From: a virus
Lineage: Duplodnaviria > Caudoviricetes
IMG/VR virus record: IMGVR_UViG_3300025789_000004
Span: 1 to 59,551 of that record
Length of the DNA: 59,551 nucleotides
Reading direction: 5' to 3' (one strand)
How positions within the stretch are numbered: the stretch's first letter is position 1; each line of letters opens with the position of its first letter. The translations under genes and the position numbers were made by a program. This document shows positions 43,884 through 47,251 of the stretch, in pieces. The notes beneath the pieces are model-generated. The model worked only from the letters and a program-made list of their open reading frames with translations, made no database searches and was not told the DNA's origin.

Positions 43884-44393
43884 ATGACCGAGCAACCGAC
43901 GCAGGATGATCGCAAGACTGTATACATTGACCCGCCCGGATTGGCCAAAGCGTGGAACGCATACAGGGCCAACATCATCGCCATGCCTTCGTCCTACAAG
44001 GCGTGCGAAGTTGGCTTTTCGGCAGGATACAGCGCCGCATGGAACACGCGGACCGACCCCAGCGCCGAAGTGCCGGACGCCGTGGAGCGGGTCGCGCGGG
44101 CGATATGCAGTGGCCACGGTAATGATCCAGACGAATTCCTGAAGGCGTTGGGTTTTCGCAGATGGGTTATGTATCAACCACACGCCCGCGCCGCCATTGC
44201 CGCAATGCCCGGAGGCGGCCCCGGCGCTTGGGTGCCAGCGGATCATCTGGCCGAGGCTAACCGTGAGATAGCGCGGCTGCGGGAGGCTCTGCAATTGGCA
44301 GATGCCGCCCTTAGCGGTGCCAACATGAATATGAATGTTGTTGAGCGCAAAGTGAAGGCAGCCCTGAAGGAGCACGCCGATGACCCTGCTTGA
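43884..44393 (+). CDS. Hypothetical mosaic protein
   Basis: AAWNTR, VERVARAI, ARAAIAAM short motifs typical of phage accessory genes. Confidence 0.55.
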   Translation: MTEQPTQDDRKTVYIDPPGLAKAWNAYRANIIAMPSSYKACEVGFSAGYSAAWNTRTDPSAEVPDAVERVARAICSGHGNDPDEFLKALGFRRWVMYQPHARAAIAAMPGGGPGAWVPADHLAEANREIARLREALQLADAALSGANMNMNVVERKVKAALKEHADDPA

Positions 44394-45077
44394 AATGCTG
44401 AAGCGTGAGCAGCCGATGGCCGCAAGCTATTTTCATGATGGAACCGTAACCCACTGGCATCCCCTTCCGGAGGGCCCTGCGTCATGACCGTCACCGCATC
44501 ATGCGGCCACGCCGTGCAGTCCGCCGATGACCTTGTCCCGGTCGAGTATGCGGACGAAGTTTGCGACGCCGTGGAGGGGTTTCTGCCTGCCACGGTGTAC
44601 GCCGTCTTCTGCCCCGAATGCGCCAGCGCCCACAAGGAGCCGACAACATGATTGAGATTACAGACGCTGATCGTCAGGCGGCGAACGAGTTTTGTGCGCG
44701 TCCGCGCCATGAGCAAATTTATCTTGCCGAAGCCTTCGCCGCCCACCGTGAGGCGGCGGTGCGCGACATGCGCGAGCGTGCGGCCAAGGAGGCTGATGAC
44801 TTTTGGGATTTGGACTCGGCAACGGACCGCATCCGGGCCCTGCCATTGGGGGGCAAGTGATGGCCAGACTATCACAGCCCTGCCCCCTTATCGGGGTCGC
44901 GTGCGAGTACGTGCCGCTGGCGCACAGTGCGGAGAGGGCGGCATCGGACGAGCGGGCACGCATCGTCCAGTGGCTGCGGTCCCGCGACCCGCATGATCCT
45001 GTGGTGAGAAACACACTGGACTATTACGGCGACGCCATCGAGTGCGGCGAGCATTGGGAAGACAAGGCGTGACCTAT

Positions 45078-45542
45078 ATGCTACACGGGGTGACTATCCC
45101 GGAGAACAGTATGGCAAGGCCGCGGTACGAGACAGTCGAGGACCTCACCCGCGAGCAGCGGGTGGCAGTACGCATCGGTGAATTCCTTGGCCGGGACTTC
45201 GAGAAGATGGACGCCAATAGTGGCGGGGACTTCCTGTATACTGCCCCGGGCAAGCCCAGCGTCGTCGTGGAGATAAAGACGCGCACGAACGCCTGCGGCA
45301 AGTACCCGACCTATATGGTCAGCAAGAACAAGTATGACCGGCTGTGCAGCTGGCACGCCAAGGGCTACAAGGCCACCCTGTTCGTGCATTGGACCGACAT
45401 GGTCGGGTACGTCATGGTGCCCTGCGATGGGATCACGTTCGGGAAGGGCGGACGCACCGACCGCAACGACGCCCTCGACACCGGGACAATGGCGTACATC
45501 CCCACAAACAATTTCAAAAGTATCGGACCGAGCGTCTTGTGA
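45078..45542 (+). CDS. PD-(D/E)XK-like nuclease
   Basis: GDF..VVEIKTR, GGRTDRND. Confidence 0.6.
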   Translation: MLHGVTIPENSMARPRYETVEDLTREQRVAVRIGEFLGRDFEKMDANSGGDFLYTAPGKPSVVVEIKTRTNACGKYPTYMVSKNKYDRLCSWHAKGYKATLFVHWTDMVGYVMVPCDGITFGKGGRTDRNDALDTGTMAYIPTNNFKSIGPSVL

Positions 45543-45691
45543 GCATCAACCGCGCCATAGCCGTCCACCTCACCAAGGCGGTCGGGACGATGTGGTGCGT
45601 GTACGCCTTCACTGTACTCTCTTTGTTCCCCATCGCCGTCCCGGCGTCGACCGGGGCGATCCAGTACATCAGCAGCGGCTCCGGAGCCTAG
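45539..45691 (+). pseudogene. Truncated 5' half of a membrane-protein gene, interrupted by the HNH cassette
   Basis: MSINRAIAVHLTKAVGTMWCVYAF..AIQYISSG then stop; paralogous to the N-terminus of 46328-46642. Confidence 0.65.
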
Positions 45692-45692
45692 T

Positions 45693-46340
45693 GTGGACTA
45701 CACAAAGCACTACGAAAATTTGGTCAGTAGGGCTATTGGACGTACCTTGGTTGGGTATAGCGAGCGCCACCACATCCTGCCTAAGTGCATGGGGGGAGGG
45801 GACGAGGGCAGCAATCTAGTTAGCCTTACTCCGAGGGAGCACTTCTTCGCCCACCAGCTGCTCCTAAAAATGTACCCGAACGTCAGGGGTCTGGCATACG
45901 CCGCGATGCTGATGTCGGGAAAGTCCGCCTACAGCAAGGGGTCCAGAAGGTATGGCTGGCTGAGAGAAAGGTACCGAGAAACGGGAAGGTCAAAAGAGCA
46001 CTGCGAGAACATATCGAAAGCAAAGATGGGCAAGGTAACAGAGGCTATGCGCAGGCCAAAGTCGGAAGAGCATAAGGCTGCATTGCGGAGGCCAAAGAGC
46101 CCGGAACATATCGCCAAGATAAAAAAGCTTGCCTGCACTCCTGAGGGCAGGGCAGTTAGGTCAGCGAACTCGAGGGGGAGGACAATCAGTGCCGAGCAAA
46201 AAGCCAAGCAATCGAAGGCAATGAAGGGGAGGCCCGGGCCCAGAAAAGGTATCCCCATGTCTGAAGAGGCAAAAATAAAACTATCAAATTCACAAAAAGA
46301 AAGACTAGCTAAGAGAAAGAGAGAGCAATGTCCTCTATAA
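45693..46340 (+). CDS. Free-standing HNH homing endonuclease with NUMOD3-like repeats
   Basis: ERHHILPKCMGGGDEGSNLVSLTPREHFFAHQLL; SEEHK, SPEH, SEEAKIKLS repeats. Confidence 0.9.
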   Translation: MDYTKHYENLVSRAIGRTLVGYSERHHILPKCMGGGDEGSNLVSLTPREHFFAHQLLLKMYPNVRGLAYAAMLMSGKSAYSKGSRRYGWLRERYRETGRSKEHCENISKAKMGKVTEAMRRPKSEEHKAALRRPKSPEHIAKIKKLACTPEGRAVRSANSRGRTISAEQKAKQSKAMKGRPGPRKGIPMSEEAKIKLSNSQKERLAKRKREQCPL

Positions 46341-46642
46341 ACAGAAAGCTGTCTGTTGTTTTGACGTCTTGCCTCGGTAGCATGTGGTGCTTTTATGCAT
46401 TTGTACTTCTGGAAATGTCGCCTATAGCCTTCCCGAATAGCATGGACACAGTACTTTACTTGTCTAACTGCATACAACTAGCCTTTATGCCCGCCATCAT
46501 GGTGGGCAGTGCAATCCTCAACGAGGAGGCAGAAGACCGGGCGCGGCAGGACCACGAGATACTGATCCAAGAGCTGCAAATGCTCCGGGACATCCTTGAT
46601 GCCTTAAATCTGGCCACACAGGGCCACACAGAGGAGAAGTAG
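46328..46642 (+). CDS. Small membrane protein (DUF1003-like)
   Basis: GSMWCFYAF, IQLAFMPAIMVG, RARQDHE. Confidence 0.65.
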   Translation: MSSINRKLSVVLTSCLGSMWCFYAFVLLEMSPIAFPNSMDTVLYLSNCIQLAFMPAIMVGSAILNEEAEDRARQDHEILIQELQMLRDILDALNLATQGHTEEK

Positions 46643-46645
46643 ACA

Positions 46646-46885
46646 ATGAGCATCATGACACGCCTGTTTCCCCACAAGGCCCTGAGAGAGGCTCTGAGCC
46701 GCATCAGGGACCACGAGGCAACAATCCTCAGCCAGCACCGGCGTCTGTGTGAAAGGGAGCGCCTCATCCGGGAGCAAGAGGCAACCATCGCCAGCAAGGA
46801 CTCGCGCATCCGCCTCCAGAAGGAGGAAATCATGCGATTGAACGACATTACCAAGGCGACAGATAATGGATCAAAATTTGATTAA
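46646..46885 (+). CDS. Coiled-coil hypothetical protein
   Basis: GAGGAG RBS; IRDHEATI/IREQEATI repeat. Confidence 0.5.
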   Translation: MSIMTRLFPHKALREALSRIRDHEATILSQHRRLCERERLIREQEATIASKDSRIRLQKEEIMRLNDITKATDNGSKFD

Positions 46886-47069
46886 CCTGCTTTGGTACGG
46901 AAGCATGAACACCGAAGGCGAGGTGGCCATTCTGCTCCAATACGCCGCCATGCGCCTCACGCAGCTTAAGGAAGTGGCTGAGGAAGCCAGTCTATGGGAT
47001 AAGGGAAGTGGCGGACCCGGTGAAATGGCCCGCCGCATCCTTGGCGAAATGCGCCACAACAATCACTGA
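46866..47069 (+). CDS. Hypothetical protein
   Basis: Overlapping small ORF. Confidence 0.4.
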   Translation: MDQNLINLLWYGSMNTEGEVAILLQYAAMRLTQLKEVAEEASLWDKGSGGPGEMARRILGEMRHNNH

Positions 47070-47251
47070 GGGGTATAGCCCGCCAGAATTGCTTCGATCG
47101 CTACTGATGTTGGCCCCGGAATGGCGCATTGACCGCTCTCGTAGCGGCGGATAGTACGGTCAGAATTGTCGCTCATGCGCAGGACCTTAGCCAATTCAGA
47201 TTGCGTAAGCCCCAGTTTCAGGCGGGCCTTGATAAATTTGTCTTTATGCAT
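47063..47251 (-). CDS. XRE-family HTH regulator
   Basis: ARLKLGLTQSELAKVL..RTIRRYESG..IP; AAGGA RBS; upstream TTGACA and operator at 47278-47292. Confidence 0.85.
   Translation of the reverse strand: MHKDKFIKARLKLGLTQSELAKVLRMSDNSDRTIRRYESGQCAIPGPTSVAIEAILAGYTPQ

What the first reader, a model, noticed from the sequence alone, without database searches (positions are those of the whole stretch)
45539..46642. HNH cassette that breaks a membrane-protein gene and rebuilds it with a replacement N-terminus
Seen: upstream of the HNH lies a GC-rich 50-aa stub (SINRAIAVHLTKAVGTMWCVYAFTVLSLFPIAVP..IQYISS). Overlapping the HNH stop is a diverged AT-rich equivalent (SINRKLSVVLTSCLGSMWCFYAFVLLEMSPIAFP..VLYLSN), which continues into a GC-rich 3' half from about 46485. 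Inference: the endonuclease inserted mid-gene carrying its own recoded copy of the 5' half. This is a splicing-free way to stay harmless and remove its own target site.
Basis: partly seen in the sequence, partly recalled or inferred. Interest (0 to 1): 0.7.

Follow-up and report, generated by a model that had tools for sequence, protein, structure and literature searches.

The report
Homing endonuclease carrying replacement gene half
A selfish DNA-cutting-enzyme gene sits inside a small membrane-protein gene of an uncultured freshwater phage and carries a foreign copy of that gene's first half, so the gene stays whole while its original first half is left behind as a dead stub.

Summary
An 817-bp cassette (45680-46496) replaces 28 bp of a 104-aa DUF1003-like membrane gene. 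It holds a 13-nt leader (stop codon for the stub, GGAG), a 215-aa HNH homing-endonuclease gene, and a foreign, AT-richer copy of codons 1-56 whose ATG lies inside the HNH 3' end.

Four metagenome contigs (L009-L012) carry the intact, HNH-free gene. Stub, then the 28 bp, then the 3' half equal that allele at about 98% DNA identity. Both alleles co-occur in one pond metagenome.

The cassette's gene half is 159/160 nt identical in a relative (L041) whose flanks are only about 65-80% identical. In L041 the HNH gene has been deleted, and a second independent deletion exists, so three stages of a homing-endonuclease life cycle are visible. The replaced segment encodes the family's most conserved motif.

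Cleavage was not tested, and no donor allele was found.

The design is known from fungal mitochondria (mobile endonuclease ORFs carrying a foreign C-terminus, e.g. Allomyces atp6). My searches found no published phage case. This scan noted the same design earlier in four other phage windows. I rate it a new variant of a known kind.

The parts
45042..45542 (+). Upstream gene, Pfam PDDEXK_14 (phage putative PD-(D/E)XK endonuclease). It is the left flank. Its 3' part lies within the long left tract of high similarity between L041 and L009.
   Evidence: Pfam E 5.1e-27. Window 44179-45538 is 98.3% identical to L009. L041-L009 identity rises to 90-100% from the 3' part of this gene onward.
45539..45691 (+). 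Stub ORF of 50 aa. It is the native first 47 codons of the membrane gene, followed by S-G-A-stop supplied by the cassette. Its GTG start overlaps the upstream TGA.
   Evidence: Identical or near-identical 50-aa stubs, all ending SSG(S/V)GA, occur in other contigs.
45540..45679 (+). Native 5' half remnant. It is the inferred left homology arm for homing.
   Evidence: 138 of 140 nt identical to the intact allele in L009-L012. GC3 is 0.915.
45680..46496 (+). The 817-bp cassette that replaces 28 bp (GTCCTGCAATTGGTACTCCTCCCTGCTC) of the intact allele.
   Evidence: blastn boundaries and alignments. A contig in run X16 joins 45679 to 46497 with exactly these 28 nt between.
45680..45692 (+). Cassette leader. 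It holds GGAG (45683-45686), a likely ribosome-binding site for the HNH gene, and TAG (45689-45691), which closes the stub frame.
   Evidence: Read directly from the sequence. The ribosome-binding function is inferred.
45693..46340 (+). Free-standing HNH homing-endonuclease gene, 215 aa, with NUMOD3-like repeats in the C-terminal part.
   Evidence: phrog_655 'homing endonuclease' E 1.4e-48. 153 homologues, many with NUMOD3/NUMOD1 domains, one named homing endonuclease. All invariant columns of a 30-sequence alignment are kept: E24 H26 H27 P30 C32 G34 G35 L45 E49 H50 H54. Pfam gives NUMOD3 at only 15.5 bits, below its cutoff.
46328..46642 (+). Rebuilt chimeric membrane-protein gene, 104 aa, distant DUF1003-like. 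Its ATG lies inside the last 13 nt of the HNH ORF.
   Evidence: Full-length and colinear with the family profile: 135.5 bits against 143.8 for the intact allele. 383 representative clusters of homologues.
46328..46496 (+). Foreign replacement 5' half, codons 1-56, carried by the cassette.
   Evidence: Only 78/165 nt and 26/55 aa identical to the native 5' half, with a one-codon indel. GC 0.438. 159/160 nt identical to L041 despite diverged flanks. Nearest relatives differ from those of the native halves.
46495..46505 (+). Right junction. ATCATGGTGGG (I-M-V-G) is shared by the cassette and the native alleles (L013 differs at one base). The switch from cassette to native sequence falls here in both the window and L041.
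   Evidence: Alignment A4.
46497..46642 (+). Native 3' half of the membrane gene. It is the inferred right homology arm.
   Evidence: Window 46497-46836 is 97.6% identical to L009-L011. 141/147 nt and 47/49 aa match the intact allele.
46646..46885 (+). Downstream 79-aa ORF. Similarity to the HNH-free relatives ends at 46836, inside this ORF.
   Evidence: Loose end at 46836 in run X20.

Best explanation
A free-standing HNH homing-endonuclease cassette has invaded a small two-helix, DUF1003-like membrane-protein gene of an uncultured freshwater tailed phage.

**The mobile unit.** It is 817 bp and holds three things:
- a 13-nt leader that stops the truncated native reading frame and offers a GGAG for the nuclease gene;
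- the HNH gene;
- a foreign copy of codons 1-56 of the target gene, which starts inside the HNH stop region.

**What the insertion did.** It replaced 28 bp that encode the most conserved motif of the protein. Downstream of the cassette a complete chimeric gene is read (foreign 5' half + native 3' half). The native 5' half is stranded upstream as a 50-aa stub. These points are shown.

**Inferred mechanism.**
1. The nuclease cuts the intact allele in or next to the replaced 28 bp during mixed infection.
2. The break is repaired from the cassette-bearing genome. The stub and upstream DNA serve as the left homology arm, and the 3' half serves as the right arm.
3. The cassette is thereby copied in.
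4. Neither the stub junction nor the foreign half keeps the target, so carriers are immune to their own nuclease.
5. The gene stays functional without an intron or intein.

**After fixation.** The nuclease gene decays or is deleted, while the foreign gene half persists. This is shown by two deletion derivatives and by truncated HNH variants.

**Origin (inferred).** The cassette probably arose from an HNH gene lying directly upstream of a whole allele in an unknown, AT-richer donor phage. A first illegitimate repair event then left the stub.
For: 1. **Intact HNH-free alleles exist.** P0003 and P0302-P0305 and contigs L009-L012 equal stub + 28 bp + 3' half. Flank identities are 98.3%, 98.6% and 97.6%.
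2. **Both alleles co-occur in one pond metagenome (run X16).** An HNH-bearing contig has depth 12.2. A contig joining 45679 to 46497 through the 28 nt has depth 7.22. X20 shows the same intact-allele end plus HNH pieces.
3. **The cassette half is mobile relative to its flanks.** It is 159/160 nt identical between the window and L041. Their far left flanks are about 65-80% identical and their 3' halves about 72-87%. Among 9 full-length rebuilt protein variants, residues 1-60 never differ at more than 2 positions. Residues 61-104 fall to 27/44 identical.
4. **The junctions are the same in diverged backgrounds.** Stubs of 82-100% identity all end SSG(S/V)GA. The right switch falls in the same ATCATGGTGGG in the window and in L041.
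5. **There is a co-conversion-like gradient.** L041 is 90-100% identical to L009 from the PDDEXK 3' end through the stub, and 65-80% further left.
6. **The HNH gene has been lost twice.**
   - L041 lacks window 45594-46311 but keeps 54 nt of stub, 16 nt of HNH tail and the rebuilt gene.
   - P0308 and P0315 fuse the stub to the HNH tail KERLAKRKREQCPL.
   - Truncated HNH variants P0291, P0295 and P0298 also exist.
7. **The nuclease identity is supported by sequence.** phrog_655 homing endonuclease, E 1.4e-48. The conserved H-N-H columns are kept.
8. **The replaced segment is the family's most conserved stretch.** The top 10-residue window is residues 50-59, across 140 representatives.
9. **The 28-nt segment is absent from the window**, even with 3 mismatches.
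10. **The gene is a chimera.** The native 5' and 3' halves share nearest relatives (L013, P0129). The cassette half has different ones (P0130, P0126, P0128).
11. **No RNA intron family** is found in 45000-47200.
12. **The phage encodes recombination functions.** A Sak4-like annealing protein and a RecE-like exonuclease are present.
Against: - No cleavage, nicking or inheritance data exist. Target site and activity are inferred.
- Near-identity of the cassette across backgrounds could in principle come from ordinary recombination without nuclease action.
- No full-length donor allele matching the foreign half was found. The best is 53% identity among the fetched homologues. The word-based search gave only 4 proteins from 5 candidates.
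- Pfam's HNH models do not match. Only NUMOD3 appears, below its cutoff. PDB sequence search gave only McrA at E 0.49.
- 0 of 15 usable loci of distant HNH homologues show a duplicated flank. 0 of 16 carry a DUF1003-like ORF. The ancestral context is therefore unknown.
- Some HNH copies are truncated, so not every carrier need be active.
- The DNA context of most ENA/Logan proteins could not be fetched. Several statements about them rest on protein sequences and shared contig lengths only.
- The L041 deletion junction rests on one contig.
Confidence: 0.85

Rival explanations
1. Passive mosaicism. An ordinary recombination event between phages brought in a foreign segment that happens to include an HNH gene and a gene half. 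The nuclease does not drive spread, or no longer does.
For: - Phage genomes here are mosaic. Similarity to L009 ends abruptly at 46836, and a 205-bp ORF is present or absent upstream.
- Truncated HNH variants exist.
- No activity data exist.
Against: - The junctions are identical in diverged backgrounds.
- The cassette is 159/160 nt identical where flanks are about 65-80% identical.
- The insertion lies in the most conserved motif of the gene.
- The gene belongs to a homing-endonuclease family with catalytic columns intact.
- There is a presence/absence polymorphism within one sample.

Together these are the usual signature of homing.
Confidence: 0.1
2. A domesticated nuclease or a functional stub. 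The HNH gene or the 50-aa one-helix stub peptide now serves the phage, for example in excluding competitors or modulating the membrane protein. The arrangement is kept by selection on the phage.
For: - The stub ORF stays open at 50 aa in all 7 stub variants seen. The window's stub keeps a start coupled to the upstream gene.
- Marker exclusion by free-standing endonucleases is known in T-even phages (PMC2988022, passages read).
Against: - Two independent deletions remove the HNH gene and part of the stub, while the rebuilt gene and its upstream 16 nt are kept.
- The stub's stop codon is supplied by the cassette.
- Stub differences between lineages may simply mirror recipient alleles.
Confidence: 0.04
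3. Tandem duplication of the gene's 5' half in place, followed by divergence and later insertion of an HNH gene between the copies.
For: Two homologous 5' halves lie 0.8 kb apart on the same strand.
Against: - Relatives 98% identical in the flanks have a single copy.
- The two halves share only 78/165 nt and differ strongly in GC3, 0.915 against 0.536.
- They have different nearest relatives.

This much divergence cannot have arisen in place in the time that left the flanks at 98%.
Confidence: 0.01

Closest known systems
Mobile endonuclease ORFs (mORFs) that create 'gene hybrids' in fungal mitochondria: Allomyces macrogynus atp6; Glomus sp. atp6, atp9, cox2, nad3; Rhizopus atp9; Mortierella cox2 (PMC3630166, passages read; the 1994 Allomyces paper is known to me only through that text and from recall)
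   Same: - An endonuclease ORF sits inside a protein gene together with a foreign, diverged duplicate of one gene end.
- The native end is displaced and stays near-identical to the close relative's gene.
- The hybrid gene remains complete.
- No intron or intein is involved.
   Different: - This case is in a phage, not an organelle.
- The nuclease is HNH, not LAGLIDADG or GIY-YIG.
- The orientation is the mirror image. The 5' half is replaced and the stub lies upstream, whereas the fungal cases replace the C-terminus.
- The nuclease is a separate ORF that overlaps the start of the rebuilt gene, not an in-frame fusion.
- Deletion derivatives that keep the foreign half are documented here.
Intronless homing and marker exclusion by free-standing HNH/GIY-YIG endonucleases of T-even phages (SegF, SegG, MobE) (PMC2988022, passages read; PMC2790892, abstract start seen in the listing only)
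   Same: - A free-standing endonuclease gene shows presence/absence polymorphism between related phages.
- Flanking DNA is co-converted.
- The target is a conserved gene next to the insertion site.
   Different: The T-even elements sit between genes and do not leave a duplicated gene half. Here the element lies inside the target gene and carries a replacement half.
Endonuclease insertions that split phage genes: mobE in nrdA of Aeromonas phage Aeh1, mobA at T4 gene 39/60, seg43 in phage 25 (PMC2988022, passages read)
   Same: A free-standing endonuclease gene sits inside a coding region of a phage gene, without an intron.
   Different: In those cases the two gene pieces are both needed and reassemble as separate polypeptides. 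Here a full-length gene is restored, and the stub is redundant.
Engineered home-and-rescue (HomeR) gene drives with a recoded rescue of the target gene (PMC7968924, title and start of abstract seen in the listing)
   Same: The design logic is shared. A nuclease is placed in its own target gene together with a cleavage-resistant replacement of the disrupted part.
   Different: HomeR is synthetic, uses Cas9 and works in a diploid animal. The parallel is conceptual only, and I did not read the paper's body.

Membership tests
HNH homing endonucleases (free-standing, NUMOD-type; PHROG 655) | Significant match to a curated family profile | tested here: met
   phrog_655 'homing endonuclease' E 1.4e-48, residues 1-184; phrog_10088 E 1.3e-16. 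Pfam gives only NUMOD3 at 15.5 bits, below its 20.4 cutoff.
HNH homing endonucleases (free-standing, NUMOD-type; PHROG 655) | HNH catalytic motif residues conserved | tested here: met
   E24, H26, H27, P30, C32, G34, G35, L45, E49, H50 and H54 are invariant, and N41 nearly so, in 30 homologues. All are present in the window protein. The motif aligns to the McrA HNH region, but weakly (E 0.49).
HNH homing endonucleases (free-standing, NUMOD-type; PHROG 655) | HNH (beta-beta-alpha-metal) fold | tested here: inconclusive
   The AlphaFold2 model has pLDDT 84.7. Foldseek against PDB gave no match at E <= 0.001; it gave only short local matches to ColE7, E9 and pyocin DNases over 34-36 residues. VIA-align gave no Z >= 5; the phage GVE2 HNH scored Z 4.0, rmsd 2.6 A, 47 residues aligned.
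HNH homing endonucleases (free-standing, NUMOD-type; PHROG 655) | Presence/absence polymorphism at one site among close relatives, with near-identical flanks | tested here: met
   L009-L012 lack it, with flanks at 97.6-98.6% identity. Both forms occur in run X16.
HNH homing endonucleases (free-standing, NUMOD-type; PHROG 655) | Site-specific cleavage of the element-free allele and preferential inheritance | not testable with these tools
   This needs biochemistry or crosses. The only indirect support is the co-conversion-like gradient.
Mitochondrial-type mORF gene hybrids | Endonuclease ORF inside a gene plus a foreign duplicate of the displaced gene end; the native end matches the close relative's gene | tested here: met
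Mitochondrial-type mORF gene hybrids | C-terminal end replaced; LAGLIDADG or GIY-YIG nuclease; organelle genome | tested here: not met
   The 5' half is replaced, the nuclease is HNH, and the genome is a phage. It works like these elements but is not a member by descent.
Intron- or intein-borne homing endonucleases | Self-splicing RNA structure around the ORF, or an in-frame Hint domain | tested here: not met
   No Rfam family at E <= 1 within 45539-46642. The HNH has its own start and stop, separated from the stub frame by the stub's stop codon. No Hint or intein domain was found.
DUF1003 (PF06210) membrane proteins (the target gene) | Score above Pfam's gathering threshold (27.4 bits) | tested here: inconclusive
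   The window protein scores 14.4 bits, and P0003 has no hit. Homologues found with it do pass: L005 27.7, L008 30.3, P0200 92.4 bits. It is a distant, shortened relative.
Genes-in-pieces created by endonuclease insertion (mobE/nrdA type) | Both gene fragments are needed and non-redundant | tested here: not met
   The rebuilt gene covers the whole family profile, positions 27-124, as the intact allele does. The stub covers only positions 29-74 and is redundant. The stub is partly deleted in derivatives.

The most novel reading that the evidence does not exclude
Phage homing endonucleases can travel as natural 'home-and-rescue' units: the nuclease plus a cleavage-resistant replacement of the part of the target gene that it destroys.

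The rescue half would be a selected component of the mobile element. It gives self-immunity. It also makes precise homing the only repair that restores the gene. It outlives the nuclease, so endonucleases drive lasting chimeric allele replacement in phage populations.

Together with four earlier notes of this scan on other phages, this would be a general route of phage gene evolution for which I found no published phage description.
Probability: 0.5. Interest if true: 0.75.

Novelty: new variant of a known kind. Interest (0 to 1): 0.6.

Why it matters
It shows a third way for a homing endonuclease to sit inside a phage gene without harming it. Self-splicing (introns, inteins) and gene splitting are the known ways in phages. 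Here the element brings its own replacement for the gene half that it displaces.

Public data for this locus hold the naive allele, the invaded allele and two nuclease-deleted derivatives. The naive and invaded alleles co-occur in one pond sample. The invasion, decay and loss stages of a selfish nuclease's life cycle, and the chimeric allele it leaves behind, can therefore be followed in a natural phage population.

The substrates are short, and the cleavage assay is straightforward. The design mirrors engineered rescue-type gene drives. It may also explain some stranded gene stubs beside nuclease genes in phage genomes.

Tried and rejected
**Searches that found nothing**
- Phage-record searches with the rebuilt protein (tblastn) and with 4 kb of DNA.
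- Single-protein scans of viral contigs with the rebuilt protein and with the PDDEXK protein.
- An exact 41-nt word of the cassette half in viral contigs. Records very near the window may be left out of these collections, so this is not evidence of absence.
- Look-ups of earlier scan notes by place in this genome and by the HNH sequence.

**Structure**
- Foldseek against PDB had no match at E <= 0.001. VIA-align had no Z >= 5.
- PDB sequence search gave only McrA at E 0.49.
- These results are inconclusive, not negative.

**Looking for the same design or the ancestral context elsewhere**
- 0 of 15 usable loci of distant HNH homologues (L025-L039) have duplicated flanks. L040's hits were self-overlap of my two query windows, and I dropped them.
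- 0 of 16 HNH-homologue loci hold a DUF1003-like ORF.
- Among 23 DUF1003-like loci, only L004/L015 (one contig) has a weak HNH-profile hit, E 4e-4, on the other strand.

**Other negatives and artefacts**
- No RNA holder was listed among the sequencing runs. Nothing can be said about expression.
- Promoter and terminator scans gave no more sites than shuffles.
- P0125 (380 aa) and P0200 (308 aa) looked at first like stub-HNH-gene fusions. They are tandem duplications of the membrane domain.
- P0314 (501 aa), in the stub's cluster, is an unrelated protein.
- A six-sequence MAFFT alignment across the whole region misaligned the 205-bp ORF against the HNH. I replaced it with pairwise alignments.

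**Literature**
- Searches for a published phage example found none. Passages of PMC10448857 were also checked.
- Subscription journals are not covered.

**Limits**
Full report
**What the window is.**
The window is a complete 59,551-bp virus record with direct terminal repeats. It is a tailed phage with these genes:
- a large terminase that contains an intein;
- a portal protein and tail fibre proteins;
- a primase and a helicase;
- a Sak4-like annealing protein and a RecE-like exonuclease.

Twenty public runs from freshwater, pond and lake metagenomes hold the stretch 45000-47200 or part of it. Eight of them may be sources of this DNA.

**The observation.**
On the + strand, the sequence reads in this order:
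- The PDDEXK_14 gene, 45042-45542.
- A 50-aa ORF, GTG 45539 to TAG 45691. Its start overlaps the upstream stop (GTGA).
- A 215-aa ORF, GTG 45693 to TAA 46340.
- A 104-aa ORF, ATG 46328 to TAG 46642, which begins 13 nt before the previous stop.

The 50-aa ORF matches residues 2-47 of the 104-aa protein at 48% identity. The E-value is 5.9e-11 within this genome and 1.5e-12 by tblastx of one flank against the other.

The composition differs sharply between the parts:

| Segment | GC | GC3 |
|---|---|---|
| Stub | 0.638 | 0.915 |
| HNH gene | 0.526 | 0.62 |
| Replacement 5' half | 0.438 | 0.536 |
| Native 3' half | 0.568 | 0.735 |

**The decisive comparison.**
A search of 5.8 billion proteins returned four relatives of the 104-aa protein.
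- P0003 (104 aa) equals the stub through ...YISSG. It differs from the window's 3' half at one residue (NEGAE against NEEAE).
- P0001 is a 98% identical rebuilt form.
- P0002 has the same first 60 residues as P0001 (59/60 to the window form), but a diverged C-terminal part.
- P0004 (87 aa) is a shorter call of the intact type.

Four metagenome contigs (L009-L012) encode P0003 exactly. By blastn:

| L009 coordinates | Window coordinates | Identity |
|---|---|---|
| 81-1440 | 44179-45538 | 98.3% |
| 1646-1785 | 45540-45679 | 98.6% |
| 1814-2153 | 46497-46836 | 97.6% |

So 28 bp of the intact gene (GTCCTGCAATTGGTACTCCTCCCTGCTC) are replaced in the window by 817 bp (45680-46496). The stub, those 28 bp and the 3' half are colinear with an intact allele.

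A more distant HNH-free relative, L013 (66% identical protein), also has a single intact gene directly after the PDDEXK gene.

**Anatomy of the cassette.**
- Its first 13 nt hold GGAG (45683-45686) and the TAG that closes the stub frame (45689-45691). Both are read. The ribosome-binding role of GGAG is inferred.
- The HNH ORF matches PHROG 655 'homing endonuclease' at E 1.4e-48.
- It has 153 homologues, many with NUMOD3 or NUMOD1 domains.
- It keeps every invariant column of a 30-sequence alignment, including H26, H27, N41, H50 and H54.
- Pfam's own HNH models do not reach it.
- The fold searches were inconclusive.
- The last part of the cassette is a copy of codons 1-56 of the target gene. 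It shares only 78/165 nt and 26/55 aa with the native 5' half and has a one-codon indel.
- The switch back to native sequence lies in ATCATGGTGGG (46495-46505). This word is common to the cassette and the native alleles; L013 differs at one base.
- No Rfam family is detected within the element at E <= 1. The nuclease has its own start and stop. Neither an intron nor an intein is involved.

**The rebuilt gene looks functional, and it is a chimera.**
I built a profile from 140 distant homologues and scored the proteins against it:

| Protein | Score (bits) | Profile positions covered |
|---|---|---|
| Intact allele | 143.8 | 29-124 |
| Rebuilt protein | 135.5 | 27-124 |
| Stub | 66.7 | 29-74 |

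The family has 383 representative clusters at E <= 0.001. It is a distant, shortened relative of DUF1003. Some members pass Pfam's threshold, but the window protein does not.

The native 5' and 3' halves have the same nearest relatives (L013, P0129). The cassette half has other ones, and none is above 53% identity. So the 'recoded' half is best read as a natural allele from an unknown, AT-richer donor.

**Evidence that the cassette moves.**
L041 is a 2,413-bp contig binned in a MAG. It carries the same cassette half at 159/160 identical nt. Its far left flank is 65-80% identical, and its 3' half about 72-87%. In L041 the right-hand switch falls in the same 11-nt island as in the window.

On the left, L041 becomes 90-100% identical to L009 from the 3' part of the PDDEXK gene through a 63-aa ORF and the stub. 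This looks like a long co-conversion tract.

At protein level, 9 full-length rebuilt variants never differ at more than 2 of their first 60 residues. Their last 44 residues fall to 27 identical.

Seven stub variants, down to 82% identity, all end with the cassette-derived ...SSG(S/V)GA.

In pond run X16, a contig with the HNH gene (depth 12.2) and a contig with the intact 28-nt allele (depth 7.22) co-occur. Lake run X20 shows the intact-allele end together with HNH pieces.

**Decay and loss of the nuclease.**
- L041 lacks window 45594-46311. It keeps 54 nt of stub (100% identical), the last 16 nt before the ATG, and the rebuilt gene.
- It is a deletion derivative, not a naive state. The longer stub of the window could not be regenerated from it.
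- P0308 and P0315 are stubs fused in frame to the HNH tail ...KERLAKRKREQCPL. This is a second deletion with different end points. It probably lies on the contig that also encodes the rebuilt P0284. I infer that from equal contig lengths only.
- HNH variants lacking the N-terminal HH (P0291) or ending early (P0295, P0298) also occur.
- In each case the rebuilt gene is retained.

**Target choice and self-immunity.**
The replaced codons 48-57 and the junction M58-V59-G60 lie in the most conserved 10-residue stretch of the family. This is residues 50-59, motif QL..LP..MV, among 140 representatives.

The 28-nt segment does not occur anywhere in the window, even with three mismatches.

It is inferred, not shown, that the nuclease recognises this segment and that carriers are immune.

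**Proposed mechanism.**
1. The nuclease cuts the intact allele at or near the 28 bp.
2. Repair copies the cassette from a carrier genome. The stub and upstream DNA are the left arm, and the 3' half is the right arm.
3. The phage's own annealing protein and exonuclease could serve this repair.
4. The stub is therefore not only debris. It is the homology that lets the unit home among relatives.

The origin is conjecture. I suggest an HNH gene directly upstream of a whole allele in a donor phage, and a first repair with homology on the right side only. Neither the donor allele nor an HNH-DUF1003 pairing was found elsewhere.

**Comparison with what is known.**
- **Fungal mitochondria.** The same design is described there. 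Mobile endonuclease ORFs carry a foreign C-terminal gene end and displace the native one. Examples are Allomyces atp6; Glomus atp6, atp9, cox2 and nad3; Rhizopus atp9; and Mortierella cox2 (PMC3630166, passages read).
- **Phages.** The T4 review describes free-standing endonucleases between genes, with co-conversion and marker exclusion. It also describes insertions that split genes into two required pieces (PMC2988022, passages read).
- **This case** is the mirror image of the mitochondrial design. It sits in a phage, with an HNH nuclease and separate overlapping ORFs.
- **Literature searches.** Three searches and passages of PMC10448857 gave no published phage example. Subscription journals are not covered.
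- **Engineered drives.** Home-and-rescue drives use the same logic (PMC7968924, listing only).
- **Earlier notes of this scan.** They report the same design in four other uncultured phages: e1-5795655, e1-5759139, e1-5871347 and e1-6003642. I did not check those.

**Verdict.**
This is a new variant of a known kind. It is of good interest because the naive allele, the invaded allele and the nuclease-deleted forms can all be recovered from public data, and because the cleavage test is simple.

Noticed in passing
window 23255-26902 (-): The large terminase ORF is 1,215 aa. Terminase matches cover residues about 53-429 and 850-1191. In between, Pfam finds Intein_splicing (E 2.9e-16), Hint, LAGLIDADG_3 and Hom_end. 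This is an intein with a homing endonuclease, so the phage carries a second, unrelated selfish nuclease.
   Followed up: partly
window 45538/45540; L009 1441-1645; L041 795-986: Relatives L009-L012 and L041 have an extra 205 bp between the PDDEXK gene and the membrane gene. It encodes a 63-aa hydrophobic ORF with a TTGA overlap to the membrane gene. The window and the more distant L013 lack it. Stub variants starting with L (P0309) or V (P0310) suggest that the cassette occurs in both backgrounds.
   Followed up: partly
window 46836/46837: Similarity to the HNH-free relatives stops abruptly at 46836, inside the downstream ORF (79 aa here, 89 aa in L009). The next about 700 bp are AT-richer. 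Run X20 has a loose end at the same place. This is another mosaic boundary, unrelated to the cassette as far as I can see.
   Followed up: no
L005 4944-5303, L006 4986-5315, L007 2843-3202: In AT-rich phages, the homologous small membrane gene lies between a GNAT-like acetyltransferase ORF that follows nrdA and the gene nrdB. The names were assigned by eye from the translations, not by a family search. ORFs with GIY-YIG-like motifs lie further downstream in L006 and L007.
   Followed up: no
proteins P0125 (380 aa) and P0200 (308 aa): Some cellular homologues carry two tandem copies of the DUF1003-like domain in one protein.
   Followed up: no
protein P0314 (501 aa): An unrelated 501-aa protein is listed as a member of the 50-aa stub's 90% cluster. 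This is apparently a clustering artefact in the protein collection.
   Followed up: no
L041 (whole contig): The 2.4-kb contig with the nuclease-deleted form is binned in a Verrucomicrobia MAG. This may be a weak host hint, or a mis-binned phage fragment.
   Followed up: no
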